A stretch of DNA of 57,823 bases from Candidatus Nomurabacteria bacterium (GCA_003155695.1 PMDZ01000004.1:51257-109079), one strand, 5' to 3'. Numbered from the stretch's first letter, positions 1 to 57,823 are shown. Notes: generated by a model not told the origin, from the sequence alone. Numbers and translations are program-made.

Positions 1-22
1 TTTCGGAACGAGTTTCACTTTG

Positions 23-94
23 TGACCCTACCGGGAATCGAACCCGGATTACCGGCTTGAAAAGCCGATGTCCTAACCGTTAGACGATAAGGCC
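23..94 (-). tRNA. tRNA-Glu (anticodon UUC)
   Basis: Reverse complement folds as a 72-nt cloverleaf. Acceptor GGCCTTA/TAGGGTC (two G-U pairs), D stem GTCT/GGAC, anticodon stem TCGGC/GCCGG with loop TTTTCAA (TTC), 4-nt variable loop, T arm CCGGG-TTCGATT-CCCGG. CCA is not encoded. Confidence 0.85.
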
Positions 95-447: not shown

Positions 448-1662
448 ATGAAAAAAATAATGCGTTTAATCTTCAACATGCGAAATATGTTGATATTAGT
501 TGTACTTCTCATTACTTACACAGTCTTTTTAAGATCAGGTAAGATTGAGTTGTTGAAATTCTTAGTATTTTGTCTATTTTGTTTGGGAATAATTATCTTC
601 GCGATAGTTTACCTTTTTTGGGCTGATAGAAAGATATTCTTTACCTTCCATAAAAGAAATAGCATTCAAGGAATTGTTAAAGGTAAAGGAGAAGAGTTTA
701 CGGGAAAAATTATTTTTCCTTCTGTTGATCAATATTTAGATGATAAGTCTAATGTTGTTGATTTTACACCTGGCACACATTCAGATGAAATTGATGAACA
801 TGTGCAAAAACCCAACTGGATTGGTATGTATCCAATCAAAGGTTATCCATTTCATACCATTTTCAAATATCACAAAATATGGCAGGAATGGGTTACAACT
901 GAGAAAATTATCGACGGTAAACCCGTTGTAGTGAGAAGTCTCGGACCAATGAGAAATGAAATGACTCCGTATCTGTTTACCAAAAGGCAAGAATATGGCC
1001 TTATGATATTGGAAGCTGAAAACAAAGAAGGTTACCCTTTAGACTTTGAAATTGCGTGGTATTGCAAACCTGTTAATTACAAAAAAGCTATTATTGATGT
1101 CAAAGACAGTTTTGGACAGATGCAAACCCAAATTCAAGGAGCTACAAATCTCTTTGTTAAGACGGAAACATTTTTATCATTAGATGCTCTGGTATTGAAA
1201 GATGGTAGAAACCCACTAGATGTCCTTGGTGAACAGGACAGATATTCCGAATTTATCGTAAGTCTCAACAAACAACTTGTTGGTGAGAAAAATCATAAAG
1301 GAATGGTATCCGAATTAGGCTGGGTAATTATCGGCGCCAAAATCATGAACATGTCATTTTCCAGTACTGCAAGTAAGGAAATCCGCGAGGCTGTAACCAA
1401 GGTTGGAGTGGTAACTCAAAAAAAACTTGCTGATATTATTGATGCCGAAGGGAAAAAACAAGTAGCGATACTTGAAAGTGAGGGTGAATCCAAAGCAATG
1501 GATAATATTACTGAATCAAAACGGAAACGTTTTGAATTATTCAAAGACAACCCAAACGCTATTCAAATAGAGATTGCAGAAAAAACTTTTGAAAAATCCA
1601 AATTAACAACTTATGTTGCTGGAGGTTCAGAAGTAAAACCAGTAATTCCTTTAGACAAATAA
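448..1662 (+). CDS. SPFH/band-7 (stomatin/prohibitin-like) domain membrane protein
   Basis: N-terminal TM helices. C-terminal region ...GWVIIGAKIMNMSF...IIDAEGKKQVAILESEGESKA... resembles the SPFH core plus its AEGE-rich coiled tail. Confidence 0.55.
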   Translation: MKKIMRLIFNMRNMLILVVLLITYTVFLRSGKIELLKFLVFCLFCLGIIIFAIVYLFWADRKIFFTFHKRNSIQGIVKGKGEEFTGKIIFPSVDQYLDDKSNVVDFTPGTHSDEIDEHVQKPNWIGMYPIKGYPFHTIFKYHKIWQEWVTTEKIIDGKPVVVRSLGPMRNEMTPYLFTKRQEYGLMILEAENKEGYPLDFEIAWYCKPVNYKKAIIDVKDSFGQMQTQIQGATNLFVKTETFLSLDALVLKDGRNPLDVLGEQDRYSEFIVSLNKQLVGEKNHKGMVSELGWVIIGAKIMNMSFSSTASKEIREAVTKVGVVTQKKLADIIDAEGKKQVAILESEGESKAMDNITESKRKRFELFKDNPNAIQIEIAEKTFEKSKLTTYVAGGSEVKPVIPLDK

Positions 1663-1664
1663 TT

Positions 1665-2330
1665 ATGAACTGGATATGGTATTTAATTGTGGCAGTAGTA
1701 ACAATTACTATTGTCATATTGCTGATTATCCGAAAACAAAATCAGCAAAAAAAAGCAACTGCGGTTGTTCAAAAAACTCAAAATACGCTAGCAACTGTGA
1801 CCACTCAGCCACTGGTTCAAACACCGCCTGCACATACGCAGGTAACAGTTCAAACCCAGAAATCTTATCGGTTTTGGAATTTTATAAAGATTCTGGTGAC
1901 CTTTGTAATTATTGCAGGTCTTGTAGTGTTACTTGTTTGGGCTATTCCGACAAAGGTTATCCCTTGGTGGCATAATATCACCCGAGATAAACCAAAACCA
2001 CAACTACATTATATTGTAGTTGATAACTGGGTCCCAGATCCAGAAAATACACGAACTGTGTATTTTATCTCTGAATATAAAGAGGTAATCAATTTTACAG
2101 GGGGACAATATGACCTGAGATTATCCTTCAGCAATTCGACAACATCATATTGCGTTAGAGATTTTCTGACAGGAGTTTATAATTGCGGGGAAGCTAATGA
2201 AGACGTAGAGATTCCCAAAAGTCCTACAACAACCATCTGTTTAATGTTTAAAACAAACGATGGACAAAAATGTGGGAAAATCGACGTTATCGCCGAGAAA
2301 AATATAAAAAAATCAATGTTAGTCCAATAA
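1665..2330 (+). CDS. hypothetical membrane protein (two TM segments, Q/T-rich linker, Cys-containing C-terminal domain)
   Basis: ORF starts 2 nt after the SPFH stop, so the two are a likely operon. TM at the N-terminus and around aa 75-95. Confidence 0.5.
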   Translation: MNWIWYLIVAVVTITIVILLIIRKQNQQKKATAVVQKTQNTLATVTTQPLVQTPPAHTQVTVQTQKSYRFWNFIKILVTFVIIAGLVVLLVWAIPTKVIPWWHNITRDKPKPQLHYIVVDNWVPDPENTRTVYFISEYKEVINFTGGQYDLRLSFSNSTTSYCVRDFLTGVYNCGEANEDVEIPKSPTTTICLMFKTNDGQKCGKIDVIAEKNIKKSMLVQ

Positions 2331-2401: not shown

Positions 2402-2437
2402 ACCAAAAAGGCAGGAAGCGAAGCTTCCTGCCTTTTA
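2402..2437 (-). terminator. intrinsic terminator (bidirectional shape)
   Basis: 10-bp stem GGCAGGAAGC / GCTTCCTGCC with a GAA loop. A/T runs on both sides. Confidence 0.6.
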
Positions 2438-2461: not shown

Positions 2462-2788
2462 CTATTTCAAGTCTCCTACTGTATAATTCCCGGTAGTTTT
2501 GTCTACTGTTATTCTGGTTTCTCCCAGTGAGGTCAAAATCATACTCATAATTCCAAAAACTGCAACCATTATGAACATTCCTATTATTCCCCAAAGCATG
2601 CTAGATTTGCTTGATTTACGTATCTCCTCATTGTCCGGAGATAACAAATACCGAGCAAGCCCATAGATGAAGTACACCATCGCTAAAGCAAACAAAAGCT
2701 TGATTAAGGGATTTAGAATCACCTTATCTACGCTTTTCATCAAAGTTACAACGCTTGCTTCAGCTACTGGTATAATTTGGAAAGTCAT
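2462..2788 (-). CDS. small two-helix pilin-like membrane protein (VirB2/TrbC-like module), paralog 5
   Basis: Module LLFALAMVYFIYGLARYLLSPDNEEIRKSSKSSMLWGIIGMFIMVAVFG is shared with the four upstream ORFs. Confidence 0.6.
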   Translation of the reverse strand: MTFQIIPVAEASVVTLMKSVDKVILNPLIKLLFALAMVYFIYGLARYLLSPDNEEIRKSSKSSMLWGIIGMFIMVAVFGIMSMILTSLGETRITVDKTTGNYTVGDLK

Positions 2789-2797
2789 AAAAAGTTA

Positions 2798-3175
2798 TTA
2801 TTGACCTGCACAAGTAACACCTGTTTGAGCATTAGGAATACAAGGAATCTGGCTTACATCCAATTGTTCCCCTGTAACACCAAAGGTATTCGTTACAACC
2901 TTTATAATTCCCCAGAAAGCAATAATAACAAACAAACCGATAAGACCATTGATAATCATACCTCGCGCATTCTTCTTTTTCTCTTCATCTCCTGACACAG
3001 TGTACTGTATAACTCCCCAAATGAAGTAAACAACAGCAAGAGTTATCAAAACAGGGATGAGGATAGCTAATATCTGATTGATAATAGCTACGACACCAAA
3101 CACAGTTTGTGAGGTTCCTGCCGCAAAAGCGAGCGATGGAGCAAGAACAGCACCTAATGAAATAATCTTCTTCAT
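2798..3175 (-). CDS. small two-helix pilin-like membrane protein, paralog 4
   Basis: Signal peptide MKKIISLGAVLAPSLAFAA. Module VVYFIWGVIQYTVSGDEEKKKNARGMIINGLIGLFVIIAFWG. Confidence 0.7.
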   Translation of the reverse strand: MKKIISLGAVLAPSLAFAAGTSQTVFGVVAIINQILAILIPVLITLAVVYFIWGVIQYTVSGDEEKKKNARGMIINGLIGLFVIIAFWGIIKVVTNTFGVTGEQLDVSQIPCIPNAQTGVTCAGQ

Positions 3176-3359
3176 ATAATTTTACTAAACCTTGTCGCGC
3201 AATTGTCTATATGTAGCGCAACGTTAATTTATAATAAACACTTCTTATAATGTTGCCTTTCCAACCGACCAGAGTAGAAAAGACATCTAACTTTTTAACT
3301 TCACTTACCTTATTGTATCACAAAAGAACTAAAAAATTAACAATACCAAATATATATCT

Positions 3360-3731
3360 TTATTTGATTTGCGGTATAGTAACACTCAGTCCGAGAGTTC
3401 CAGTGAGAATACCAACTAGTCCCCACATTGCAACAATAACAAACAAGGCTATTAATCCTCCAATAATAAAATTCTTACCATTTTTACGTTTCTCTTCGTT
3501 ACCTGGATTTAAATAATATTGAATAACCCCCCAAATAAAACCAGCCATAGCCAATGTAACCAAAAACGGAACTAATGCACTATTGAGAACGCACTGCCCC
3601 CAATTTATTATACCCTCAATTCCACCTACAGCAGCATTACCACAAACTGTAACCGCAGCTTCAGCTGGCGAAAACATTAATAACCCTACTAACGCATAAC
3701 TTCCCAACAAAATAATTTTTTTCATAAACAA
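3360..3731 (-). CDS. small two-helix pilin-like membrane protein, paralog 3
   Basis: Signal peptide ending SPAEAA. Module AGFIWGVIQYYLNPGNEEKRKNGKNFIIGGLIALFVIVAMWG. Confidence 0.7.
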   Translation of the reverse strand: MFMKKIILLGSYALVGLLMFSPAEAAVTVCGNAAVGGIEGIINWGQCVLNSALVPFLVTLAMAGFIWGVIQYYLNPGNEEKRKNGKNFIIGGLIALFVIVAMWGLVGILTGTLGLSVTIPQIK

Positions 3732-3752
3732 TATTTTTTAATAATAAACATA

Positions 3753-4169
3753 TTATGTTGAACTTTTAATTTCATCGACCGTTTTTCCAATTGCATCCGC
3801 TATGACAAACGCACCAAGCAATATTGCCGCCCCTATTATAGTATATGTAAGAGCTTTTTTGGCTTTGGTAATCTTCTCCGGGCTACCTTGAGCCTCCACA
3901 AAAAGAAATCCGGTATATATGATGGCCAAAGCCACAATCGGAACTCCAACAACAAGGACTATATTTATGACAATCTTTATAAAATCGGGAATGGTTTGAG
4001 GACCGGTTGTCCCTAAAGGATTGTCTATGGTACTTGTAATGCCCGTGCCAGTGGTACCTGTTCCGGCAAATATTACCGGTACAAACAACATGAAGGCGAA
4101 TACAAATACAAAACTATATTTTAAAATATTTGATAAAATAGTGTATTTTTTTGTTTTGAAAATTTTCAT
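3753..4169 (-). CDS. small two-helix pilin-like membrane protein, paralog 2
   Basis: N-terminal hydrophobic leader and a GT-rich segment. Module ALAIIYTGFLFVEAQGSPEKITKAKKALTYTIIGAAILLGAF. Confidence 0.65.
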   Translation of the reverse strand: MKIFKTKKYTILSNILKYSFVFVFAFMLFVPVIFAGTGTTGTGITSTIDNPLGTTGPQTIPDFIKIVINIVLVVGVPIVALAIIYTGFLFVEAQGSPEKITKAKKALTYTIIGAAILLGAFVIADAIGKTVDEIKSST

Positions 4170-4193
4170 TATAAAAATGTTAATTAATAATAA

Positions 4194-5531
4194 CTAAGAT
4201 AAAAACATCGGACCAATAAAACCAAGACTTACAAGAATAGTCTTTACGACAAGCCAAGCTACCAGAGCGATAATAAAACCGATAAGAGCTCTTATTAAAA
4301 TTTTCTTGGCCTTTGTTTTATTCTCCGCGCTCCCCATATCACTAAGATACAGGAATCCTACATAGACAAGGATAAGAGCAAAGAGCGGGGTGACAAGATA
4401 AACAAGTATGTAATTAATAATCTTATTTATCATCGCAACTAAAGCATCAAAACCGCACGCATTTTTATATTGCTGTGTTGTAGAATCAATTTCCCCACTA
4501 TTACAATCGGGAACTAAACCACTAAATTTGACCTGAGTTGTGGGGGTAGTTGGGGTGGTTGGAGTAGTTGGTGGAGTGGTTGGATTGGTTGTGCCTGTAA
4601 CAGTAAAACCAATACTAGTCGCATCTCCATTATTAAGTGTATGCACAGTAATCGGACCAGTGGTAGCACCAGGTGGCACTCTGACGGTAATCGTTGTCGG
4701 TGAAGGGTTGGTGGCAGTTGGAACATTTCCGGCACCGTTAAAAACAACCCAGCCGACACCAGTTAAATTTGTTCCTGTAATTGTAATTGTATCCCCTACA
4801 GCACCGGTTCCCGGAGAAACATTTGTTATTGTAGGTACCGTAGAATTTGCTAATGTTGAAAAATTAACAGTTCCGACTGAATCACTCGCTCCCGCATATT
4901 CCACAATACCTTCATAATCACCAACAGAACCTAATCCATCAAATGAGGCACTGGCAGTTCCACTCGCACTACTTGTGACAGTATAACTTCTGATATAATA
5001 CGCCGTTAAATCCCCCAAAGAAACCACTTGAAGTACTACGCTCTGGTTGGACGTGAGCCCTGTTGCATTTAAAGTTACCGATGTTGCATTAAGAGATGAA
5101 GTGGTTAGAGCAGGTGTTCCAGTTGTTGAAGTTGCATTTTTTTTGAATGCATATGTTAATGTAACATCATTCAATAAAGGGCCAGCAACATTACACATAG
5201 TATCCGTTAGTTGAAAATTGGAGCAAGCATCGAGCCCTCCAGTCAAAAAACTTCCGGTCGATTCATTGTCTGGGACTAACGTTATACCTATACTTGAAAT
5301 GTTTGTAACCTGCACTGTGCATCCTGCTAGAGTCTGGCAACTGGGATTATTATTAATTTCACTATTAGTACTAATGATAGAGCCAGTACCATTTAGATCA
5401 GCTTTATAGTTAATATGAACAATTTTCAAAGTGTAGGCGAAAGTTAATTTGGGTAGAATAAAAAAGCTTGGAAGGAAAATTAATAGTCCTAAAATAAATG
5501 TAGATATAAATTTAGGTGTTTTGTTAATCAT
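4194..5531 (-). CDS. large surface protein: signal peptide, beta-rich ectodomain with IPT/TIG-like repeat, Pro/Thr linker, C-terminal pilin-like two-helix module
   Basis: IPT/TIG-like PTITNVSPGTGAVGDTITITGTNLTG...GPITV. Linker TTNPTTPPTTPTTPTTPTT. C-terminus LILVYVGFLYLSDMGSAENKTKAKKILIRALIGFIIALVAW matches the small paralogs. Confidence 0.7.
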   Translation of the reverse strand: MINKTPKFISTFILGLLIFLPSFFILPKLTFAYTLKIVHINYKADLNGTGSIISTNSEINNNPSCQTLAGCTVQVTNISSIGITLVPDNESTGSFLTGGLDACSNFQLTDTMCNVAGPLLNDVTLTYAFKKNATSTTGTPALTTSSLNATSVTLNATGLTSNQSVVLQVVSLGDLTAYYIRSYTVTSSASGTASASFDGLGSVGDYEGIVEYAGASDSVGTVNFSTLANSTVPTITNVSPGTGAVGDTITITGTNLTGVGWVVFNGAGNVPTATNPSPTTITVRVPPGATTGPITVHTLNNGDATSIGFTVTGTTNPTTPPTTPTTPTTPTTQVKFSGLVPDCNSGEIDSTTQQYKNACGFDALVAMINKIINYILVYLVTPLFALILVYVGFLYLSDMGSAENKTKAKKILIRALIGFIIALVAWLVVKTILVSLGFIGPMFLS

Positions 5532-5533
5532 AA

Positions 5534-6856
5534 TTATTTTCTTAGGAGAAGAGTAAGTTCATCTTGCGCTTTGTTTATGGCTTCACCTGTCGACAAATTA
5601 TTTGATAATATGTTTTCTATCAATTCTTTAAAGATTGAATCACTTTTTGCACTATTCGGGTCAAGCCAAGACCTGGAGATAAGTGCCGAATTGAAGAATG
5701 TGAATAAATAAGGGTCATTTGGCCTGTTGGCAAGAAGAGCTCGAGAGGCAGGAGGCAGAGAAAGGGCGGTACTGAAATTCTTGGCATCATCTCCTTGATT
5801 TATCGTTTCTGCCACGCCTATTGCCGACGCTATATTCCCGGATTTTTTATTAACCGCGATGGTATATATTTCCCCATATGTTCGCTTTACTGTGGTATCT
5901 TTTATCTGAGGAATTTGTGTTACATCAAAACTTAAATTAGGATTTGCCGCTTCTATTTTAAATAGTTCACTAGCTCTGCCTAGATAAAAGGCGAGCTTCC
6001 CTGCTGTAAACATATCCAGAGAATTAGGAAGAGAACGATTCCAAGAATAAGCCGTATCCGATGGATTTGAAAACTCGACAAAGAATTCAACGACAGCCGA
6101 AGTGGGAGAAATAGCAAGGTTGGATGGATTACTGTTCAGCACAGATATATAACTTTGTTTGGTTTGGTTAACTTGATCAACCTGTCTCTCTATGATGAAG
6201 TTATTATTCTGAAGGAGCAGGGTTGCCAGTATATCTTTGGCATTATTTATATTATCGTATTGACCGAGAGCAATCATACTTCGACTTATGGTCCCTTGAT
6301 TATCTCTTTTGGTTAAAGTGGGGTTGAGAGTAAATAATTCATCCCAACTTTTTGGAGGATAAACTATTCCTTCGTTTGTTATAATATCTTTGTTGTAATA
6401 CAAAACCATCGGGTCAACAACTATCGGAAATCCTAAAACCCCTTCATTATCCAGATAAATATCCGCTCCATCAATGAAAGAATCTTTGAACGTCTTCTCC
6501 GGATAATTTGCATATGGTACTTTGTATATAAAATTATTATTACTTTTTATCATATCCGGAGTTATTATAAATAGGTCAGGACCTGTTCCATTTGCAAACG
6601 CCTCAATTAGATCTTGCTGGTAAGTGGACGGGTCTTTCCCTTCATATCTTACACTTAAATCTTTATTGGCTTTACTTACAACATCAAACGATTTAGATAA
6701 ATCAGTGCTGTGAAAAGTTCCCCAAATAACAACCTTGCCTTGAAGCCCACTTTTTGTACTTGTACCACCTATTTTTATAGCTCCCGAGAATATCAAAACG
6801 GCAAAAACAAAGAAGGCCAAAAAGATTGCGATTAAAATTGTTTGGAAATTACTCAT
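5534..6856 (-). CDS. extracellular solute-binding protein family 1-like protein, membrane anchored (no transporter partner in window)
   Basis: N-terminal TM. Pattern GKVVIWGTF...YEGKDPSTYQQDLIEAFANGTGPDLFIITPDMI is typical of sugar-type ABC substrate-binding proteins. There is a 2-nt gap to the next gene. Confidence 0.55.
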   Translation of the reverse strand: MSNFQTILIAIFLAFFVFAVLIFSGAIKIGGTSTKSGLQGKVVIWGTFHSTDLSKSFDVVSKANKDLSVRYEGKDPSTYQQDLIEAFANGTGPDLFIITPDMIKSNNNFIYKVPYANYPEKTFKDSFIDGADIYLDNEGVLGFPIVVDPMVLYYNKDIITNEGIVYPPKSWDELFTLNPTLTKRDNQGTISRSMIALGQYDNINNAKDILATLLLQNNNFIIERQVDQVNQTKQSYISVLNSNPSNLAISPTSAVVEFFVEFSNPSDTAYSWNRSLPNSLDMFTAGKLAFYLGRASELFKIEAANPNLSFDVTQIPQIKDTTVKRTYGEIYTIAVNKKSGNIASAIGVAETINQGDDAKNFSTALSLPPASRALLANRPNDPYLFTFFNSALISRSWLDPNSAKSDSIFKELIENILSNNLSTGEAINKAQDELTLLLRK

Positions 6857-7376
6857 ATGTAAAAATTATACCATAATGATGGGCGCTAGTGGAAATATTT
6901 TCTATTGTTTTAAAACCTCTTTTTTCAAATAATTCTTTTGCCATATTTTCTGTCACAACATGCTCGGGTATCGGTCCCATTCCTCCAAACGACTCGATCC
7001 AATCTATCAAGAGAACTTTTCCTCCTTTCTTCAGGACACGTTTTGCTTCGTCGATAAGACCAAGCTTATCTTCGGCTTGAAATAAGACATTAGAAATAAT
7101 AACCGCATCCATCGAACGGTCGGCTATTTTGGTTCCTCCACGTCTTTCTATATCGCCCCAAATACATTCAATATTTGAGAATCCCCATTGTTTTATCTCA
7201 CTTTCTAGTTTTTTTACCAAGTCTTTCTGAACTTCGATGGCATAAACTTTTCCTGAGTATCCAACTTTTGGACTGCAAGCTTTGGAGTAAAAACCTGTCC
7301 CTGCCCCAAAATCCGCTACACGCATACCTTCCGTTAATCCTAAGTGTAAAATATTTTGTTCCGGGTTAGTAAACAT
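6849..7376 (-). CDS. class I SAM-dependent methyltransferase
   Basis: Motif I VADFGAGTGFYS and post-I/II pattern VYAIEV...DAVIISNVL. Overlaps the downstream ORF by 8 nt. Confidence 0.8.
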   Translation of the reverse strand: MFTNPEQNILHLGLTEGMRVADFGAGTGFYSKACSPKVGYSGKVYAIEVQKDLVKKLESEIKQWGFSNIECIWGDIERRGGTKIADRSMDAVIISNVLFQAEDKLGLIDEAKRVLKKGGKVLLIDWIESFGGMGPIPEHVVTENMAKELFEKRGFKTIENISTSAHHYGIIFTYE

Positions 7377-7423
7377 ATGTATATATTATATCATAACTAA
7401 AACAAAAAAACTCAAAATAAACA

Positions 7424-9871
7424 CTACAAACAAGTAATTGAGGCAATGTTGTCCCCACCGCGGAGCTTCATAACTGTCACTCCTTGAGTCTGACGGCCTG
7501 AAGTCGGAAGCGAATCAAGACTGACGCGGATGACTTGACCTTTTTGCGAGACGGCGATGATTTCACTTTCTTCACCGACAATTTTCGCCACGATTAGTTT
7601 ACCGGTTTTGGCTGTAACTTTGGCGGTTTTTATTCCCGAGCCACCGCGTTTTTGAGTTTTGTATTCTTTGATATTGGTTTTCTTACCGAAACCATTGGAG
7701 GAAAGCGTCAGGATGGAAAGTTTAGTCTCTCCTTTTGGAATCCTATCTACCCCTATCACAAAATCATTTTTGCTTAACTTTATGGCTCTAACACCACCGG
7801 CCGAGCGACCCATTTCGCGAACATCAGTTTCCTTGAACCGAATAGATTGTCCTAAAGTTGTTGCAAGAGCCACATCGTCTCCTTTCGAAATAGCCAGTAC
7901 TGCTTGAAGTTCATCATCTTTATCGAGCTTGATAGCCAATAAACCACTCCTGCGAACATCTTTAAAGCTCTCGGCTGCCACCTTTTTGGCTACTCCCATT
8001 TTGGTCACCATCATAAGTGTCTCAACCGTACTCTTCATTTCTTTATCAATCGGTAAAATCGAAGTAACTTTTTCCTCCGCACCAAGGGAAATGAAATTCA
8101 TTATTGATTTGCCTTTTGTCGCCCGCTTGCCTTCCGGAATATCATACATTTTAATCTGGTAGGCCTTGCCCAAATTCGTGAAGAACAATAAATCCGAGTG
8201 GGTATTGGCCGAGACAAGCATGGTGACAAAGTCTTCGTCTTTTGTCTCTATATCTATGACTCCGACACCTCCGCGTTTCTGAGCATGATATTCGGATGGG
8301 TCGGTGCGTTTAACATAGCCACCTTTGGTGAATACTAGGACCGATTCTTTCTCCGGAATCAAATCTTCTTCGTTTATGGCTTTGACTCCTCCCTTAATAA
8401 TACGGGTGCGTCTTACATCCGAATACTTTTCTTTTATATCTTTAAGTTCGAGGGATATAATATTCATCATCTTTTTTGGACTGGCAAGCAGAATTTCCAA
8501 CTCTTTAATTAATTTCTGTTTTTCTTCCAGCTCAAGTTCGACATTTTTGCGTTCAAGGCCGGCCAATTTCTGAAGTTTCATCTCAAGAATGGCTGTTGCT
8601 TGCAAATCCGAAAATTTGAATTCTTTCATTAAATTTATCTTGGCTACAGCTGTATCTTTTGAAGCTCGGATAACCGATATAACTTTATCTATATGGTCAA
8701 GAGCTTTCTTGAGCCCGAGAAGAATGTGTTCCCTTTCTTTGGCTTTGCGTAAATCAAATATAGTGCGACGACGGACGATTACTTCCCGATGAGAAATGAA
8801 TTCCCCGAGCAAACTCTTGAGCGATAGAGTTTGCGGAACTCCATCTACTAGTGCCACAATATTATAATTAAATGACTGCTCGAGCTGGGTATGTTTGTAA
8901 ATATAATTTAAAACTTTTTGTGGAATAACTCCGCTTTTAAGGTCTATGACAATACGAATATCCTTGGCTGACTCATCGCGTAGCCCTTTTACCCCTTCAA
9001 GTTTTTTCTCCTGGACAAGGAGAGCAATGGATTCAATGAGAGCAGATTTATTCACACGATACGGTATTGAAGTAATAACAATTTGGAAAGTGTCACTTTT
9101 TTGTTCCACTATTTCCGCTTCTCCACGGGTCACGACTCCACCACGCCCTGTCGAATACGCATGAACCAAATCGGCTTGGCCATAAACTATGCCACCAATC
9201 GGGAAATCAGGACCTTTGATAAATTCCATCAAGTCTTCCGTTGTCGCATCTTTATTATCTATCAAGTGAACAGTCGCATCGATAACTTCAGCTAGGTTGT
9301 GCGGTGGAATATTTGTGGCCATTCCGACGGCAATGCCCAGAGTTCCGTTCAAAAGTAAATTTGGAACGGCTGTCGGCAAAACACTTGGCTCTTTGCGAGT
9401 TTGGTCATAGTTTGGTCTGAAGTCCACGGTCTCTTTCTCGAGGTCAAGAAGTAAAAGTGAAGAAATTTTGGACATTTTTGCCTCCGTATAACGCATGGCT
9501 GCCGCTCCGTCGCCATCGATAGAGCCGAAGTTTCCTTGCCCATGAATGAGCGGATAACGATAAGAAAAATCTTGAGCCATGCCAACCATCGAATCATAAA
9601 CGGCCACATCTCCATGCGGGTGATATTTTCCAAGGACATCTCCGACAATAGCGGCTGACTTTCGAAAACGCGCAGAAGAAGTCAAACCCATTTCGTTCAT
9701 GCCAAATAAAATTCTTCTGTGAACCGGTTTCAATCCATCCCGAACATCAGGAAGCGCCCGGTCAGTAATAACCGACATTGCGTAGTCAATGAACGACTCT
9801 TTCATTTCCGAACTTATTTCCACAGAAATTACATTTTTATGATTGTCTTTTATTTCTTCTTCCTTTGCCAT
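7424..9871 (-). CDS. gyrA: DNA gyrase subunit A
   Basis: 815 aa. [27 protein letters not shown] active-site Tyr motif, and C-terminal beta-pinwheel repeats. Confidence 0.97.
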
Positions 9872-28527: not shown

Positions 28528-29577
28528 TTATTTAATAATTAATTTCTTTGCTGTGTAGTAGTTATTGTCCTTGTAAAACTTTACTATATACAGCCCCTTT
28601 GGCAAACCGGCTGTTGATAAACTGCTATTTATTTTCTTACTGTTTATCATTACAGTACCGGTCATGTTACAGATAACTACGTTCATTCCTTCACATTTTT
28701 CAGAAAAATTAATTTGGTCATGCGTCGGATTGGGATAGATATTGACCTTGTCAGATGTATTTACATCGTTGACCGAAGTTGTTACATCTCCCTCGTATTG
28801 AACCAATACATAATCGACTAGCATTCTGCCGATTATATTTTCGGTTTTTACGTTAGTTGGCTGTAAAGTGCCATCATAAGCTTCTGCCCATGAATCAGCA
28901 GGTGCCCACATACTTAAATGCAGTTGCACAGGACCAGTTGGTACTTTGTTTGACCTTCTCACTTCAAGACCATCAATCCCCCATATTATTTCTTTTGGAG
29001 TAATCTCCAAAGTATACGTATGATAGATCGCGATTGAATTTGAGATGATAAATTCACGCGGATCTCCTACAGGTGATCCTTTAACAAAGACGTCGGTGAC
29101 CACCGGATCCGGGTCACTTAAAATTTCATTCGTCAGCAATCCAAATAAGATCTGTTCATCGGAATTCCCAAATTTAGGCAATCCTTGTACAAATATAAAA
29201 CCAGCCATTCCTCGTGGTGCCGGGTTTTGTATTCTGGCCCGAACCGTAAAGACTAGCCTACCATCCCTCATTTCAAATTCTTGTTTCGTAGCCAAATCAG
29301 TACCGAGAATGTATTTCCCTTCCGTGGTCCAAGTTTGAGCTTCAACCTTTGCTTCGCTGAAAGATGACTGCGGTAAGGGCGAATTTCTGTAGATTGTACG
29401 ACCCATAGTTATCGGTGTACCATCCTGGTTTTCATGCCATGGAAAATACCAGTTTGCAGCATCAACAGTCAAATCGGCGAAGTGGTCGTAAAAAAGATCT
29501 TTCAGTGCCTCGACATTTCCACATATGATGATAGTGCTTATAGCTAAAATCATCAAAACTTTCTGTTTTGTTTTCAA
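28528..29577 (-). CDS. secreted concanavalin/glucanase-like protein with T9SS-type C-terminal sorting domain
   Basis: Signal peptide. C-terminus VNIYPNPTHDQINFS...GLPKGLYIVKFYKDNNYYTAKKLIIK matches the Por/T9SS CTD pattern. Apparent TTG start. Confidence 0.7.
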   Translation of the reverse strand: MKTKQKVLMILAISTIIICGNVEALKDLFYDHFADLTVDAANWYFPWHENQDGTPITMGRTIYRNSPLPQSSFSEAKVEAQTWTTEGKYILGTDLATKQEFEMRDGRLVFTVRARIQNPAPRGMAGFIFVQGLPKFGNSDEQILFGLLTNEILSDPDPVVTDVFVKGSPVGDPREFIISNSIAIYHTYTLEITPKEIIWGIDGLEVRRSNKVPTGPVQLHLSMWAPADSWAEAYDGTLQPTNVKTENIIGRMLVDYVLVQYEGDVTTSVNDVNTSDKVNIYPNPTHDQINFSEKCEGMNVVICNMTGTVMINSKKINSSLSTAGLPKGLYIVKFYKDNNYYTAKKLIIK

Positions 29578-41217: not shown

Positions 41218-41499
41218 TTATATTAACTCTTCTCCTTTTGCGCTTAAAACACAAATACCTTTTTCAGAACTTTCAAGATATCCTTTCTTTTTTAAATAAA
41301 AGCGTGCCCATGAAACTCTATCGCTCAACTTAGTTTGTGTCCCTTTATGAATCTTATTTCTTTCATCCTCGGTTAAATTAAGCATATCGGCCACCACACG
41401 CTCAACATCCTTAACTGAGGCTCTTCCTCCTAAATCATATATGGCTTTTAACGTTACACTAGTTAGATTTTTATACAAAGGTAATTTCATACTCATCAT
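41218..41499 (-). CDS. stand-alone Mrr_N-like winged-helix protein
   Basis: LKAIYDLGGRASVKDVERVVADMLNLTEDERNKIHKGTQTKLSDRVSWARFYLKKKGYLE. Start trimmed to the Met at 41499. Confidence 0.5.
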   Translation of the reverse strand: MMSMKLPLYKNLTSVTLKAIYDLGGRASVKDVERVVADMLNLTEDERNKIHKGTQTKLSDRVSWARFYLKKKGYLESSEKGICVLSAKGEELI

Positions 41500-41562
41500 T
41501 ATACTATAAATTAAGCCAACTGAAAAACGTTTTAAGTTTTTCAATTTTTGGGTTCTATACTT

Positions 41563-41591
41563 GGCTCCCCTTCTGGGACGAAGTGGGAACC
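41563..41591 (-). repeat. tRNA-Asn-3'-end-like repeat, G1 type
   Basis: GGCTCCCCTTCTGGGACGAAGTGGGAACC, preceded by TCTATACT. Nearly identical to 42224-42252. Confidence 0.65.
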
Positions 41592-41629
41592 ATATTAAAT
41601 AGTTTAAACTGTATGATATAATATAAAAC

Positions 41630-42112
41630 ATGGAAAAGATAAATATTTACATAGATGGAAATAATTTATACAGGTCAGCTAAAGAACTAGGATTTGAAAT
41701 TGATTACAAAAAATTTAGAGGATGGCTTAGGCAGAAATATAATGCTAGTAATATTTATCTATTTATTGGACTAGTTCCTGAAAGAGTAAAATTCTACGAG
41801 TATTTACAGAGTTGCGGCTATATTTTGGTTTTTAAACAAACAGTATCTGTTGGGGAAAAAATAAAAGGAAATTGTGATGCGGAACTAGTGTTAAAAACTG
41901 TATCTGATTTTTACACCAAATCTTTTTCAAAATGTATTTTAATCACAGGTGATGGGGATTTTGGTTGTCTGGTAGAATTTTTAAAAGAAAATAAGGTTAT
42001 AAATATTGTGATATCACCCGATGAAAACAAATGCTCTATTTTACTAAGAAATAAAAATATAGAAATCACTTTTTTGAATGAGCTTTATCATAAGTTTTCA
42101 AATAGAATATAA
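41630..42112 (+). CDS. NYN (LabA/DUF88-like) domain putative RNase (cassette 3)
   Basis: INIYIDGNNLYRSAKELG...ILITGDGDFGCLVEFL is a typical NYN/PIN-like acidic motif arrangement. Confidence 0.7.
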   Translation: MEKINIYIDGNNLYRSAKELGFEIDYKKFRGWLRQKYNASNIYLFIGLVPERVKFYEYLQSCGYILVFKQTVSVGEKIKGNCDAELVLKTVSDFYTKSFSKCILITGDGDFGCLVEFLKENKVINIVISPDENKCSILLRNKNIEITFLNELYHKFSNRI

Positions 42113-42223
42113 AAAGAAAAAGCCCCCAATATAGACGAATCTATATAAGGGTCTTCTTCATAGTGATACAGGTATTATATCATAATTATCCTAAAATATG
42201 CAAGTACTGAGTCTATACTAACT

Positions 42224-42252
42224 GGCTCCCCGTCTGGGACGAAGTGGGAACC
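42224..42252 (-). repeat. tRNA-Asn-3'-end-like repeat, G1 type
   Basis: GGCTCCCCGTCTGGGACGAAGTGGGAACC. Hairpin-capable: GGCTCCC/GGGAACC outer stem and CGTC/GACG inner stem. Confidence 0.65.
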
Positions 42253-42274
42253 TTTTTGATGGAATCTATAAAAG

Positions 42275-42559
42275 ATGTATAATTGGAATATGACAACTAA
42301 AAAACATATTACAACAGAAGAAGCAAAACGGACGGGTAAGCGATTAGGGATTAAATGGGATAAATTTGATGTTGCTCAGTTTAAAATTGGTATGGAAGTA
42401 GAATTGGAACATGGAACTATTAGAAAACTAACAAATATTAGTAATGACAATTTATTAATGACAGGTAAGATTGCACTGGCACATCTAAATGAAATTCCCG
42501 ACTACTTCACTCGTTTATTGAAGATGGAAAAAGAAGCTAAAAAACAGATCCCAAAATAA
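42275..42559 (+). CDS. DUF5661-like small protein (cassette 2)
   Basis: MEVELEHGT...GKIALAHLNEIPDYFTRL resembles the DUF5661 signature, which is often phage-associated. Confidence 0.45.
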   Translation: MYNWNMTTKKHITTEEAKRTGKRLGIKWDKFDVAQFKIGMEVELEHGTIRKLTNISNDNLLMTGKIALAHLNEIPDYFTRLLKMEKEAKKQIPK

Positions 42560-42972: not shown

Positions 42973-43098
42973 TTTGTATACGTTTTAAAGAAGTTGAATA
43001 TTTTTCTTTACCTTACTACTTTTAAGAAATATTATCAATTAGACTTAGGTTTTAGAAAAGTTATCAAAAAGCCAATTTTTTTATTGTTTTTAATTTTG

Positions 43099-43170
43099 CT
43101 CCGTGGGTAGGGATCGAACCTACGACCAATCGCTTAACAGGCGACCGCTCTACCGCTGAGCTACCACGGA
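43099..43170 (-). tRNA. tRNA-Asn (anticodon GUU)
   Basis: Reverse complement: TCCGTGG-TA-GCTC-AGCGGTA-GAGC-G-GTCGC-CTGTTAA-GCGAT-TGGTC-GTAGG-TTCGATC-CCTAC-CCACGGA-G. 72 nt, CCA not encoded. Confidence 0.9.
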
Positions 43171-56280: not shown

Positions 56281-56287
56281 ATAATAT

Positions 56288-56593
56288 TGATTTGTATCTA
56301 TAAGCCGAGTTCTGTCCTCCGGCCGAAGCCGGAGCAATAGATATTTATCTAGGCCCGACGTTACCGTCAGGCTCAAGCGACTCAGACTCCCTAAAAAATA
56401 GAGAGAATACGGTCTTGCACACACGTAAGTATTTTGCCGTTTCACCCGAACTAAATCGGTTCGTCACTGTTCGCAACTCGGCGATTGCTCGCGATGGGTA
56501 TTACCCACTACGCTTGTCCGACCTAAGTCGAACTATGTGCTCGGACTTTCCTCACCCAGCCATTAGACTGGGCGCATCCATCCAATACAAACC
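56288..56593 (-). ncRNA. rnpB: RNase P RNA (bacterial, compact, about 305 nt)
   Basis: On the minus strand: GAGGAAAGTCCGAGC (56553-56539), GGGTGAAACGGC (about 56450-56439), ACAGAACTCGGCTTATA (about 56315-56299). P1 pairing is TTTGTAT (56591-56585) with ATACAAA (56297-56291). Confidence 0.85.
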
Positions 56594-57106: not shown

Positions 57107-57823
57107 AATTGAATTATTCCACGAACAGCTTCCGCTACCCGTGCCTTGTTACGACTTATTCCCTGTTACCGAGCTTACTGTAGGCCCTCCGTATGGAGAG
57201 ATTTCGAGCACTCCCGGCTCCCTTGAATTGACGGGCGGTGAGTACAAGACTTGAGAACGTATTCACCGCGGTATATATGACCCGCGATTACTAGTAATTC
57301 CAACTTCATGGGGTCGAGTTGCAGCCCCCAATCCGAACTGGCGCAATTTTTATTAGGATTCGCTCAGGGTTACCCCGTCGCTGCCCGTTGTAATTGCGAT
57401 TGTATTATGTGTGTAGCCCAAGGTATCAAGGGTCATGCTGACCTGGCGTCATCCTCCCCTTCCTCCCCGACCAAAAAATACAATTAAGAATTAATAATTA
57501 ATAATTAATAATTTGAAATACATTGCTGAATTTCTCATTCTTAATTCTTAATTCTTAATTAATAATTACATCCTTGGGTCGGGGCAGTCTCGTGTGACAC
57601 TTATAACACACAACGAGGGTTGCGTTCGTTACCCCACTTAAGGGAACAATTCAAACCACGAACTGACGACGGCCATGCAACACCTGTCAACTAGTCTTGC
57701 GAGGGCTCTAGTTTCTTAGAGCTTTCACGTTGATTTCTAACCTTGGTAAGGTTCTTCGTTTATCATCGAATTAAACCACATAATCCACTACTTGTGCAAG
57801 TCCCCGTCTATTCCTTTGAGTTT
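57107..57823 (-). rRNA. rrs: 16S rRNA, 3' portion (E. coli ~907 to 3' end), runs off the window
   Basis: Reverse complement contains AAACTCAAAGGAATAGACGGGGAC, GCATGGCCGTCGTCAG, AACGAACGCAACCC, GAGGAAGGGGAGGATGACGCCAGGTCA, GTACTCACCGCCCGTCA and AAGTCGTAACAAGG. Divergent at universal primer sites, as in CPR. Confidence 0.92.
57473..57576 (-). repeat. 104-nt A+T-rich insertion in 16S helix 40 (AT-rich TAATTA-type element, copy 3 of 3)
   Basis: Flanked by the helix-40 stem CCCCGACC (57465-57472) / GGTCGGGG (57577-57584). E. coli has only CCAGTGATAAACTGG at this position. Confidence 0.75.

What the first reader, a model, noticed from the sequence alone, without database searches (positions are those of the whole stretch)
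2462..5531. Five tandem paralogs of a VirB2/TrbC-like two-helix pilin module
ORFs 2462-2788, 2798-3175, 3360-3731 and 3753-4169, plus the last ~85 aa of 4194-5531, share one module. It begins with a hydrophobic helix ending in an aromatic turn (YFIWGVIQY, GFIWGVIQY, YFIYGLARY, YTGFLFVEA, YVGFLYLSD). A short charged loop follows (GDEEKKKNAR, PGNEEKRKNGK, PDNEEIRKSSK, GSPEKITKAKK, GSAENKTKAKK). A second helix closes it (LIGLFVIIAFWG and variants). Several copies have signal-peptide-like leaders. The combination of signal peptide, two TM helices, a short basic loop and 100-140 aa is the architecture of conjugative/T4SS pilins. Comparable small proteins are known to be expanded in CPR genomes. Yet no VirB4/VirD4/VirB6 or type IV pilus ATPase gene occurs anywhere in these 58 kb. 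The tandem quintuplication with strong divergence outside the module suggests a surface filament with interchangeable subunits, or antigenic/host-range variation. That would be plausible for an episymbiont.
Basis: partly seen in the sequence, partly recalled or inferred. Interest (0 to 1): 0.7.

Follow-up and report, generated by a model that had tools for sequence, protein, structure and literature searches.

The report
Conserved five-gene T4SS-pilin array in CPR
Five neighbouring genes of an ultra-small (CPR/Patescibacteria) bacterium really do encode five different versions of a conjugation-type (VirB2-like) pilin; such pilin arrays are already known in these bacteria, but here the five turn out to be a fixed, ancient set kept in the same order in at least 56 related species, not interchangeable variants.

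Summary
Five minus-strand ORFs (2462-5531) share one two-helix module. All five pass Pfam's own threshold for PF18895 T4SS_pilin, and there are no further copies in the window.

So is the absence of VirB4/VirD4/VirB6 or type IV pilus genes from the 58 kb.

The phenomenon is already published. Tandem arrays of 2-11 divergent VirB2-like pilins are catalogued in Patescibacteria, and one such array is essential in Southlakia epibionticum.

What I add is comparative. In 65 untruncated related loci from Paceibacteria/Nomurabacteria-type genomes, the layout is LactB-gyrA-methyltransferase-SBP-[pilins]. Sixty of these arrays have exactly five pilins, and 56 keep the order p5-p4-p3-p2-p1. All 305 modules have their nearest relative at the same array position in another genome. 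This argues against interchangeable or antigenically varying subunits. It favours five non-redundant subunits of one structure.

Other points:
- Positions 1 and 5 carry variable extra domains, Ig-like/TIG in this p5.
- p2 has its own conserved promoter-like site and 5'-UTR hairpin.
- A near-complete relative with the same array (RAAC4_OD1_1) has a VirB4/VirB6/VirB3 cluster about 250 genes away.

Filament formation and dependence on a T4SS remain inferred.

The parts
2406..2436 (.). Perfect 14-bp-stem palindrome flanked by T-runs on both strands. It is a bidirectional terminator-like site between the end of p1 and the convergent gene 1665-2330, and it marks the end of the pilin transcription unit.
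   Evidence: 14 pairs, 7 G-C; inverted repeat I4, 100% complementary
2462..2788 (-). p1, array position 5. A 108-aa T4SS_pilin-family protein without a signal peptide; the module starts at about residue 15. In 23 of 65 related genomes this position carries a C-terminal extension of up to ~670 aa with no Pfam match.
   Evidence: (28.0 bits vs 26.6)
2798..3175 (-). p2, array position 4. A 125-aa T4SS_pilin with a Sec-type leader (…AFA|A), a helical hairpin and a C-terminal tail with two invariant cysteines (C112, C122). Orthologues share 60-70% identity and are never extended. Candidate major subunit (inferred).
   Evidence: (43.6 bits)
3254..3345 (-). Conserved leader region in front of p2. It holds a possible -35 (TTGTTA, 3343-3338), an extended -10-like TGTGATACAAT (3322-3312) and a 5'-UTR hairpin (3285-3254) whose loop carries GGTCG.
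   Evidence: median gap 122 nt before position 4, against 2-26 nt for the other gaps; GTCG-loop hairpin in 53/59 genomes, against a mean of 4.2 in shuffles; 46 distinct stems; no Rfam match
3360..3731 (-). p3, array position 3. A 121-123-aa T4SS_pilin with a leader (…AEA|A) and a Cys30/Cys47 pair ahead of the module. It is the closest paralogue of p2 (46-51% identity).
   Evidence: (36.3 bits)
3753..4169 (-). p4, array position 2. A 138-aa T4SS_pilin with a long leader. This is the paralogue type that also matches Pfam TrbC/VirB2.
   Evidence: 32.2 bits; TrbC E 0.0019; 40/43 orthologues hit TrbC, best 4.6e-8
4194..5531 (-). p5, array position 1. A 445-aa fusion made of: leader; a low-confidence region (23-136); two Ig-like beta-sandwich domains (141-225; 234-311, the latter IPT/TIG-like); a Pro/Thr linker (315-337); a Cys343/Cys359 pair; and a C-terminal T4SS_pilin hairpin (360-435).
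   Evidence: 34.2 bits; homologues are PF01833 TIG + PF18895; tandem FN3/Ig-like, SGBP-B and intimin D0-D1 matches
5534..6856 (-). Membrane-anchored solute-binding-protein-fold gene (SBP_bac_1/8). It ends 2 nt before p5 and overlaps the upstream methyltransferase gene. It lies directly upstream of the array in all 65 untruncated related arrays analysed, by selection. No ABC permease or ATPase is nearby. A functional link to the pilins is only a hypothesis.
   Evidence: orthologues 62-76% identical over full length
6849..9871 (-). Upstream context, probably the same transcription unit: a class-I methyltransferase (6849-7376) and gyrA (7424-9871). This gene order is conserved in the related genomes.

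Best explanation
The locus is a fixed set of five paralogous VirB2/TrbC-superfamily pilin genes (Pfam PF18895 T4SS_pilin). It sits on the chromosome of a Paceibacteria/Nomurabacteria-type CPR bacterium, at the end of a gyrA-methyltransferase-SBP-pilin gene string.

Shown:
- Family membership of all five.
- The two-helix hairpin architecture.
- Leaders on four of the five.
- Cysteines occurring only in pairs, and only in segments that would be outside if the charged loop is cytoplasmic.
- Strict conservation of five orthologous types in one order across at least 56 species-level genomes.
- Variable extra domains only at the ends of the array: an N-terminal insert at position 1, and a C-terminal extension at position 5.
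- A separate conserved promoter-like site and leader hairpin in front of p2.
- Co-existence of the same array with a distant VirB4-TrsD-VirB3-VirB6 cluster in one near-complete relative.

Inferred:
- The proteins are inserted by Sec/YidC as hairpins with both termini outside.
- They are then taken from the membrane pool by the lineage's chromosomal MPF-FATA-like T4SS and assembled into one heteromeric pilus-like surface structure.
- p2, probably with p3, forms the bulk of that structure.
- p5 and p1, and sometimes p4, act as minor subunits that display adhesin-like domains toward a host cell.
- The structure serves host contact and possibly exchange, as proposed for the essential pilin array of Southlakia epibionticum.
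For: - Family: PF18895 is above the gathering score for all five, and for all five RAAC4 orthologues. TrbC/VirB2 is hit by 40/43 p4-type orthologues. NCBI names the orthologues 'pilin'.
- Fold: the AF2 model of p2 has a leader helix plus a hairpin, H25-60 and H64-97, with pLDDT ~90 in the hairpin. The p5 model has Ig-like domains followed by a hairpin.
- Fixed set: 60/65 arrays have five genes and 56/65 have the order p5-p4-p3-p2-p1. The nearest-neighbour test gives 305/305.
- One assembly: natural fusion proteins carry p2-type and p3-type modules in a single polypeptide.
- Surface exposure: the extensions are TIG/FN3/Ig-like, and the cysteines are paired and confined to predicted outside segments.
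- p2 as major subunit: it has its own promoter-like site and leader hairpin and is never extended, 0/67.
- Machinery elsewhere: Table S1/S3 of PMC12102498 lists VirB6, VirB3, TrsD, VirB4 and a sixth PF18895 pilin at CDS 531-537 of RAAC4_OD1_1. That genome's array is CDS 283-287. VirB4 is present in 2,417 of 3,035 Patescibacteria assemblies.
- Precedent: the pilin array in the S. epibionticum T4SS locus is essential (PMC10633639; PMC12857230).
Against: - No T4SS gene lies in the window, within 10 kb beyond either end, or within 10 kb of the array in the related loci fetched. The link to a T4SS is therefore by family name and by co-occurrence in a single checked genome.
- Presence of VirB4 in the source genome could not be tested.
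- No solved VirB2/TraA/TrbC structure is matched by sequence. Foldseek is uninformative for a bare hairpin.
- No filament made of PF18895 proteins has been observed in any CPR bacterium.
- Covalently fused two- and three-module proteins would fit a membrane-embedded oligomer at least as well as a filament.
- The 'major subunit' role of p2 has no expression data behind it.
Confidence: 0.6

Rival explanations
1. The five proteins are not filament subunits. They are permanent membrane components: either PrgF-like inner-membrane parts of the monoderm T4SS channel, or a T4SS-independent hetero-oligomeric membrane complex that works with the co-transcribed solute-binding protein, for example in uptake or sensing of a host-derived ligand.
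For: - The array is always directly preceded by an orphan, highly conserved SBP gene, with a median gap of 2 nt, and never by T4SS genes.
- The published survey scored the position-1 orthologue of RAAC4 as a homologue of pCF10 PrgF, a 75-aa two-helix membrane protein of a pilus-less Gram-positive T4SS.
- phmmer with PrgF gives its only marginal hits (E 0.01-0.06) to array pilins.
- Fused 4- and 6-helix versions exist.
- Gram-positive T4SSs generally lack pili (PMC12102498).
Against: - Profile comparison of the p4-type and p5-type alignments with PrgF gives no support, with probability below 2%.
- Sequence links go to the TrbC/VirB2 pilin family.
- The large Ig-like/TIG display domains on the end members look like adhesins on a projecting structure.
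- The SBP adjacency may simply be part of a long conserved gene order (LactB-gyrA-MT-SBP) in this lineage.
Confidence: 0.25
2. One reading: recently expanded, interchangeable pilin cassettes providing antigenic or host-range variation, like the VirB2 paralogue arrays of Bartonella and Anaplasma.
For: - Identity between paralogues is low (mean 30%).
- Sequence outside the module is strongly divergent.
- The variable extensions at positions 1 and 5 do differ between species. Host-specific adaptation of the displayed domains is therefore plausible.
- The same idea is raised in PMC12102498.
Against: - Each paralogue has a one-to-one orthologue at the same position in the related genomes, 305/305. 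The duplications therefore predate the radiation of the lineage, and every copy is retained.
- Conservation within a position is high, for example 60-70% for p2.
- No repeats longer than 48 nt at 71% identity and no invertible segments are present.
- The p5 protein is identical on 10 contigs from several samples.
Confidence: 0.07
3. Ordinary small membrane proteins (holin-like, YggT-like or similar) that resemble pilins only through hydrophobic composition.
For: There are weak sub-threshold hits to many two-helix membrane families. Examples are Phage_holin_4_1 at E 0.016 and 15.7 bits against a cut-off of 22.2, DUF350 and Yip1.
Against: - Only PF18895 passes its curated threshold, and it does so for all five copies.
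- TrbC/VirB2 is hit by 40/43 p4-type orthologues.
- There is no phage context: the neighbours are gyrA, S1, HisRS, SecA and DnaE.
- The charged loop motif and the helix periodicity are conserved across 8,994 cluster representatives.
Confidence: 0.02

Closest known systems
VirB2-like pilin arrays of Patescibacteria (Quinonero-Coronel et al. 2025, PMC12102498; the six-pilin array in the Southlakia epibionticum T4SS locus, Wang et al. 2023, PMC10633639; the TM7x 'Sec-secreted array')
   Same: The Pfam family is the same (PF18895). The genes are arranged in tandem. The paralogues are strongly diverged: the literature reports a mean of 25% and a maximum of 54%, and here the mean is 30% and the maximum 51%. 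The phylum is the same. Sec-type leaders are present.
   Different: This array is not in or near a T4SS gene cluster. It follows gyrA-methyltransferase-SBP, and in the one relative that could be checked the T4SS cluster is ~250 genes away. Its composition is fixed: five orthologous types in one order across at least 56 species. Its end members carry large display domains. In the paper's Table S3, as held, the RAAC4 copy of this array is not listed as VirB2; only its first gene appears, as 'FATA_PrgF'.
VirB2/TrbC/TraA conjugative pilins of Gram-negative T4SSs (Pfam PF04956)
   Same: Both have a leader peptide, a mature size of ~70-110 aa, two hydrophobic helices joined by a short charged loop, and termini on the outside. 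p4-type members match the TrbC HMM.
   Different: The organism is a monoderm. There are five co-conserved paralogues rather than one pilin gene. No VirB5-type tip protein is present. Some members are fused to Ig-like domains. No match to solved pilin structures was found by sequence. Assembly into a pilus has not been shown.
VirB2 paralogue arrays of Bartonella and Anaplasma (antigenic variation)
   Same: Several divergent VirB2-type genes lie side by side.
   Different: Those arrays are thought to supply alternative variants. Here every paralogue has a conserved orthologue at a fixed position and there is no recombination substrate, which points to non-redundant roles.
Major plus minor pilin sets of type IV pili and type II secretion (e.g. 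GspG with GspH-K). This is a functional analogy only.
   Same: A fixed set of about five paralogous subunits is encoded together. One small conserved member and several specialised members can carry extra domains.
   Different: The fold and family are unrelated. There is no class-III (prepilin peptidase) signal motif in any of the five, and no PilB/PilT-type ATPase in the window.
PrgF of Enterococcus pCF10 (MPF-FATA) and the Mbov_0395 'pilin-like conjugal transfer protein' family of Mycoplasma ICEs (NCBIfam NF045849)
   Same: These are small two-helix membrane proteins encoded in monoderm T4SS loci. NF045849 is the best NCBIfam hit of all five (E 3e-9 to 1e-4). The published survey scored the position-1 orthologue as PrgF.
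   Different: All NF045849 scores (22-36 bits) are below the family cut-off of 40. hhalign with pCF10 PrgF gives no support.

Membership tests
Pfam PF18895 T4SS_pilin | Whole-protein HMM score at or above the curated gathering score (26.6 bits) | tested here: met
   p1 28.0, p2 43.6, p3 36.3, p4 32.2 and p5 34.2 bits. The RAAC4 orthologues score 31.3-40.9 bits.
Pfam PF04956 TrbC/VirB2 pilin | HMM score at or above the gathering score (27.9 bits) | tested here: inconclusive
   The window's p4 scores only 18.8 bits (E 0.0019) and the other four give no hit. However, 40 of 43 p4-type orthologues hit at E<=0.01, best E 4.6e-8.
VirB2-type conjugative pilin (functional class) | Cleavable leader followed by two hydrophobic helices joined by a short charged cytoplasmic loop | tested here: met
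   Leaders with AxA-type ends are present in p2-p5 and absent in p1. Hydropathy segments were found. The AF2 hairpin is H25-60/H64-97 in p2 and H360-399/H402-435 in p5. No dedicated signal-peptide predictor was available.
VirB2-type conjugative pilin (functional class) | Encoded with, and assembled by, a T4SS (VirB4, VirB6 and others) | tested here: not met
   Genetic linkage is not met. There is no T4SS gene in the window, within 10 kb beyond its ends, or in the 10-kb flanks of the related loci fetched. Co-occurrence in the genome is met for RAAC4_OD1_1. Dependence on a T4SS is not testable here.
VirB2-type conjugative pilin (functional class) | Polymerises into an extracellular helical filament (with phospholipid) | not testable with these tools
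   No multimer prediction tool or experimental data were available. No such filament is reported for CPR bacteria in the papers read.
Patescibacterial VirB2 arrays (PMC12102498) | Two to eleven PF18895/PF04956 genes in tandem (or separated by one gene) with low mutual identity | tested here: met
   There are five adjacent genes. Module identity is 19-51% with a mean of 30%. The published range is a mean of 25% and a maximum of 54%.
Patescibacterial VirB2 arrays (PMC12102498) | Location inside or next to the virB4 cluster (true of the S. epibionticum array and of 1,135 of 1,948 assemblies) | tested here: not met
   See above. In RAAC4 the array is CDS 283-287 and virB4 is CDS 535.
NCBIfam NF045849 Mbov_0395 pilin-like conjugal transfer protein | Score at or above the curated cut-off (40 bits) | tested here: not met
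   Scores are 22.0-36.4 bits.
PrgF (MPF-FATA, pCF10) | Detectable homology to PrgF | tested here: inconclusive
   The published hmmscan labels the position-1 orthologue FATA_PrgF at 94% coverage. My hhalign against pCF10 PrgF gives probability below 2%. phmmer gives only marginal hits, E 0.01-0.06.
Type IV pilins (T4P/T2SS) | Class-III signal peptide with the G|F-T-L-I-E-type motif | tested here: not met
   A regex search found no such motif in any of the five.
Phage holins / YggT-like membrane proteins | Family HMM above the curated threshold | tested here: not met
   The best hit is Phage_holin_4_1 at 15.7 bits against a cut-off of 22.2. There was no YggT hit.

The most novel reading that the evidence does not exclude
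The five co-conserved paralogues build one obligately heteromeric VirB2-type structure in a monoderm, a composition not described for any T4SS pilus. For example, each paralogue might occupy its own protofilament of the five-start architecture known for conjugative pili. Alternatively, p2/p3 might form a shaft, with p4 and the domain-bearing p5/p1 forming a priming or tip complex. The structure would be expressed from a housekeeping operon together with a dedicated solute-binding protein, and would act as a host-contact and nutrient-uptake conduit rather than a conjugation organelle.
Probability: 0.12. Interest if true: 0.8.

Novelty: new member of a known kind. Interest (0 to 1): 0.4.

Why it matters
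T4SS-type pilins in a monoderm phylum are one of the open puzzles of CPR biology. The one genetic study found such an array essential for epibiotic growth, and nobody knows what it builds.

This locus shows that in a large Paceibacteria lineage the pilins are not a loose, variable gene family. They form a fixed five-part set, with a defined order, a separately controlled central member and domain-bearing end members, and they are unlinked from the T4SS genes. That turns 'why so many pilins?' into testable questions:
- What is the stoichiometry?
- Which subunit is the major one?
- Do the end members form a tip?
- Does the neighbouring SBP take part?

It also suggests that published catalogues undercount these arrays in Paceibacteria. 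For the finding as submitted, however, the core claim is a correct recognition of something already described.

Tried and rejected
- Sequence search of PDB with profiles of p2-type and p4-type orthologues. No VirB2/TraA/TrbC chain was found, only chance hits to designed channels and GPCR helices.
- Foldseek of the p2 model against PDB. Nothing scored below E 0.9; a bare helical hairpin carries too little information.
- Looking up the source assembly (GCA_003155385.1 / PMCO01) in the supplement of PMC12102498. It is absent, so VirB4 presence in the source genome could not be read off.
- Walking beyond the window with the look-up of encoding contigs. The ten kb on each side hold no T4SS genes.
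- Testing the SBP-pilin link outside this lineage. The 120 best SBP homologues are all orthologues at 62% identity or more, so no independent contexts were obtained.
- Rfam on the array region. There is no family for the p2 leader, only sub-threshold hits on the terminator.
- hhalign of the p4- and p5-type profiles with pCF10 PrgF. No support.
- Repeat search for cassettes or shufflon-type sites. Nothing relevant.
- Rejected idea: the multi-module proteins in the representative library are read-through artefacts. Their linkers are Cys-containing, pilin-like pre-module segments, and there is a single leader.


Full report
**What is there**

The window carries five consecutive minus-strand ORFs:
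- p1, 2462-2788 (108 aa)
- p2, 2798-3175 (125 aa)
- p3, 3360-3731 (123 aa from TTG; public gene calls use the ATG at 3725)
- p4, 3753-4169 (138 aa)
- p5, 4194-5531 (445 aa)

The similarity is real.
- Pairwise BLASTP E-values reach 1e-26 for p2/p3 and 1e-12 for p4/p5.
- Profiles of p5-type and p2-type orthologues align with 96.6% probability, E 5.5e-10.
- An HMM built from the five modules finds these five and nothing else in the six-frame translation of the window.
- Module identity is 19-51%, mean 30%.
- There are two subgroups, p1/p2/p3 and p4/p5.

**Family**

All five pass the curated threshold of Pfam PF18895 'T4SS_pilin', with 28.0-43.6 bits against 26.6. No other Pfam family reaches its threshold; the holin hit is 15.7 bits against 22.2. 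NCBIfam's closest model is the Mycoplasma ICE 'Mbov_0395 pilin-like conjugal transfer protein', but all scores are below its cut-off.

The link to classical VirB2/TrbC is strongest for the p4 type. The window's own p4 scores only 18.8 bits. Even so, 40 of 43 orthologues hit PF04956 at E<=0.01, with a best E of 4.6e-8.

Structure and topology:
- The AF2 model of p2 shows a leader helix and then a hairpin of two long helices, 25-60 and 64-97, with pLDDT about 90 in the hairpin.
- Neither profile searches of PDB sequences nor Foldseek find a solved pilin. For a bare hairpin that is uninformative rather than negative.
- p2, p3, p4 and p5 have Sec-type leaders ending in AFA/AEA/IFA/TFA. The cleavage-site alanine of p2 is invariant in 36 orthologues.
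- p1 has no leader and no room for one.
- None of the five has a type IV prepilin motif.
- Cysteines occur only in pairs, and only in segments that lie outside if the loop is cytoplasmic: p2 112/122; p3 30/47; p5 65/71, 103/113 and 343/359.

**p5**

Homologues of p5 combine PF01833 (IPT/TIG) with PF18895. The model shows, in order:
- a leader;
- a low-confidence stretch (23-136);
- two beta-sandwich domains (141-225 and 234-311);
- a Pro/Thr linker;
- the pilin hairpin (360-435).

Foldseek matches the ectodomain to tandem FN3/Ig-like modules, to Bacteroides surface glycan-binding proteins and to intimin D0-D1. p5 is therefore a pilin module carrying an adhesin-like stalk.

**Surroundings**

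The window is ordinary chromosome. It encodes gyrA, ribosomal protein S1, HisRS, peptide deformylase, formyltransferase, a P-type ATPase, lactate permease, a DEAD helicase, DinB, MscL, PurH, an M1 peptidase, DnaE, RNase HII and SecA. It also carries RNase P RNA and part of a 16S rRNA gene.

No VirB4, VirD4, VirB6, VirB3 or VirB8 homologue and no type IV pilus gene is present. phmmer with the pCF10 T4SS proteins also finds nothing. None of the unassigned ORFs is a multi-helix VirB6-like protein.

The array is directly preceded by a membrane-anchored solute-binding-fold protein (5534-6856, ending 2 nt before p5). That gene overlaps a methyltransferase gene, which follows gyrA. A perfect 14-bp hairpin terminator (2406-2436) follows p1.

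The same DNA is in NCBI assembly GCA_003155385.1 and in several metagenome assemblies. Ten kb beyond either end of the window adds a serine recombinase and assorted housekeeping genes, but no T4SS genes.

**What is known**

The phenomenon is published.
- Quinonero-Coronel et al. 2025 (PMC12102498) searched 3,035 Patescibacteria genomes with PF18895, PF04956 and CONJScan profiles. They found VirB4 in 2,417 of them.
- They report 441 'VirB2 arrays' of 2-11 tandem pilin genes in 383 assemblies, with mean identity 25% and maximum 54%.
- Wang et al. 2023 (PMC10633639) showed by Tn-seq that the series of pilin genes inside the T4SS cluster of Southlakia epibionticum is essential.

**What the comparison adds**

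The p2 protein has hundreds of close relatives (60-70% identity) named 'pilin' in Paceibacterota/Nomurabacteria MAGs. A scan of species-representative genomes with the p2 orthologue alignment returned 80 loci.

ORF calling, an iterated module HMM and BLAST against the window's proteins gave these results:
- Almost every locus shows the same gene string: metallo-beta-lactamase-fold gene, a small ORF, gyrA, methyltransferase, SBP, the pilins, and then a convergent pair. The convergent pair is a small membrane protein plus a protein of 300-420 aa with a weak SPFH/Band-7 hit.
- Of 65 arrays not truncated by a contig end, 60 have exactly five pilin genes.
- 56 of the 65 show the order p5-p4-p3-p2-p1, judged by best match to the window's paralogues.
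- Four have an extra p3-type gene.

In an alignment of the 305 modules from 60 five-gene arrays plus the window:
- mean identity is 0.50-0.59 within an array position and 0.14-0.36 between positions;
- every one of the 305 modules has its nearest relative in another genome at the same position.

The five genes are therefore five old orthologous groups, each retained. They are not a recent quintuplication and not a pool of exchangeable cassettes. Consistent with that, the array has no DNA repeats longer than 48 nt (at 71% identity) and no invertible-segment-type repeats. The identical p5 protein occurs on ten contigs from different samples.

**Pattern within the set**

Extra domains appear only at particular positions:
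- Position 1 (p5 type) has an insert between leader and module in 24 of 62 genomes. The inserts are TIG, FN3-like or Ig-like.
- Position 5 (p1 type) has a C-terminal extension of up to ~670 aa, with no Pfam match, in 23 of 65.
- Position 2 is occasionally extended (5 of 65).
- Positions 3 and 4 are essentially never extended (1 of 67 and 0 of 67).
- Nineteen of the 60 five-gene arrays have no extension at all.

The only sizeable gap inside the array lies before position 4. Its median is 122 nt, against 2-26 nt for the other gaps; in the window it is 184 nt. That gap holds an extended -10-like TGnTATAAT (window 3322-3312). It also holds a leader hairpin whose loop carries GGTCG (window 3285-3254). 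The hairpin is found in 53 of 59 genomes, against a mean of 4.2 in shuffles, and 46 different stem sequences preserve the pairing. Rfam has no match.

These features suggest, but do not prove, that p2 is separately and strongly expressed, as a major subunit would be.

**One assembly**

A profile of p2 orthologues finds 8,994 cluster representatives at E<=1e-3 among 1.84 billion. Of the best 150, 57 contain two or three pilin modules in one polypeptide. These have a single leader and short Cys-containing linkers.

Position-specific HMMs classify the modules of the five fusions examined mostly as p2-type plus p3-type. P0296 is ambiguous: its middle module scores p3-type 68.7 against p2-type 68.1. 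Each module has both termini on the same side of the membrane, so such fusions are topologically possible. They argue that these two types sit next to each other in the finished structure.

**Machinery**

I could not scan the source genome for VirB4. However, one of the 80 loci (L052) is the 693,530-bp scaffold that constitutes the assembly of Parcubacteria bacterium RAAC4_OD1_1. Its array proteins are ETB63832-63836, that is CDS 283-287, with the SBP at CDS 288.

Tables S1 and S3 of PMC12102498 list the following for this genome:
- VirB6 (CDS 531), VirB3 (533), TrsD (534) and VirB4 (535);
- one further PF18895 pilin (537);
- three T4CP-like genes elsewhere.

A genome with the same five-gene array therefore has a T4SS cluster, but about 250 genes away.

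In that table only CDS 287 of the array appears, and it is labelled FATA_PrgF rather than VirB2. CDS 283-286 are missing, although all five pass the PF18895 threshold here. This gyrA-linked array thus seems not to have been catalogued as a VirB2 array. My own test of the PrgF link, using pCF10 PrgF (a 75-aa two-helix protein), is negative by hhalign. It is only marginal by phmmer.

**Interpretation**

The best-supported reading is as follows.
- The five proteins are non-redundant subunits of one surface structure of the VirB2 type.
- They are inserted as hairpins with their termini outside.
- They are assembled by the lineage's chromosomal MPF-FATA-like T4SS.
- p2/p3 form the bulk of the structure.
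- The end members display adhesin-like domains toward a host.

The family, the architecture, the fixed composition and the co-occurrence with a T4SS in one relative are shown. Polymerisation, T4SS dependence, subunit roles and any role of the SBP are inferred.

The main rival is that they are permanent membrane components, either PrgF-like channel parts or an SBP-coupled complex. That rival is not excluded, and the fused multi-module proteins fit it equally well. The antigenic-variation model is largely refuted for the modules. It survives only in the weaker form that the displayed domains at positions 1 and 5 differ between species.

**Verdict**

This is a correct first-stage call of a known kind of feature. 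The window's array is a new, well-conserved member of that kind, with an unlinked position, fixed five-part composition and its own regulatory leader. Interest is moderate.

Noticed in passing
window 3254-3345 (minus strand); the same position in L010-L089: There is a conserved promoter-like site (extended -10, TGnTATAAT) and a 5'-UTR hairpin with a GGTCG loop in front of the p2-type gene. The hairpin is present in 53 of 59 genomes, with 46 different stems that keep the pairing. A second 'AGTCGTTTA' often lies nearer the start codon. There is no Rfam family for it, and what reads it is unknown.
   Followed up: partly
proteins P0293, P0294, P0296, P0301, P0304 (representative library): Natural proteins carry two or three T4SS_pilin modules in one chain, with p2-type and p3-type modules fused (four or six helices). 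57 of the best 150 hits are of this kind. Their organisms and gene neighbourhoods could not be looked up.
   Followed up: partly
L052 8720-10695 (RAAC4_OD1_1, ETB63832-ETB63836): Supplementary Table S3 of PMC12102498 lists only the first gene of this five-gene array, and lists it as 'FATA_PrgF'. The other four are absent from the table, although all five pass the Pfam PF18895 threshold. The published count of pilin arrays in Paceibacteria may therefore be an underestimate.
   Followed up: partly
window 5534-6856 (minus strand): This is an orphan, membrane-anchored solute-binding-fold protein. Its orthologues are 62-76% identical over full length, so it is more conserved than the pilins. It always abuts the first pilin gene. 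No ABC permease or ATPase is present in the window or in the 10-kb flanks of related loci.
   Followed up: partly
window 22-94 (tRNA-Glu) and L001 15449-18985 (beyond the window start): Just outside the window, next to tRNA-Glu, the source contig carries a 528-aa large serine recombinase, an HTH regulator and unknown genes. This may be the edge of an integrated element. The pilin array lies on the other side of the tRNA.
   Followed up: no
window 448-2330 (plus strand): A convergent gene pair lies downstream of the array: 404 aa with two N-terminal hydrophobic segments, and 221 aa. Counterparts in related genomes give a weak SPFH/Band-7 hit and sit at the same place. The pair is separated from p1 by the bidirectional terminator at 2406-2436.
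   Followed up: partly
window 28528-29577 (minus strand): A 349-aa protein has a GH16 glycoside hydrolase domain and a Por_Secre_tail domain (type IX secretion C-terminal sorting domain, E 6e-12). That is unexpected in a monoderm CPR genome, which should have no T9SS.
   Followed up: no
window 56285-56593 and 57107-57823 (minus strand): RNase P RNA (class A, 123.8 bits) and the 3' part of a 16S rRNA gene, cut by the window end. The 16S fragment could be used to place the organism.
   Followed up: no
window 41218-42559, next to tRNA-Asn at 43098-43170: A small cluster of an Mrr_N-domain protein, a NYN-domain nuclease and a DUF5661 protein lies beside a tRNA gene. This may be a small mobile or defence islet.
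   Followed up: no
L054 12705-15722: In one related genome, a 1,005-aa protein that fuses a caspase (Peptidase_C14) domain to a DEAD/Helicase_C helicase lies 2 kb downstream of the pilin array.
   Followed up: no
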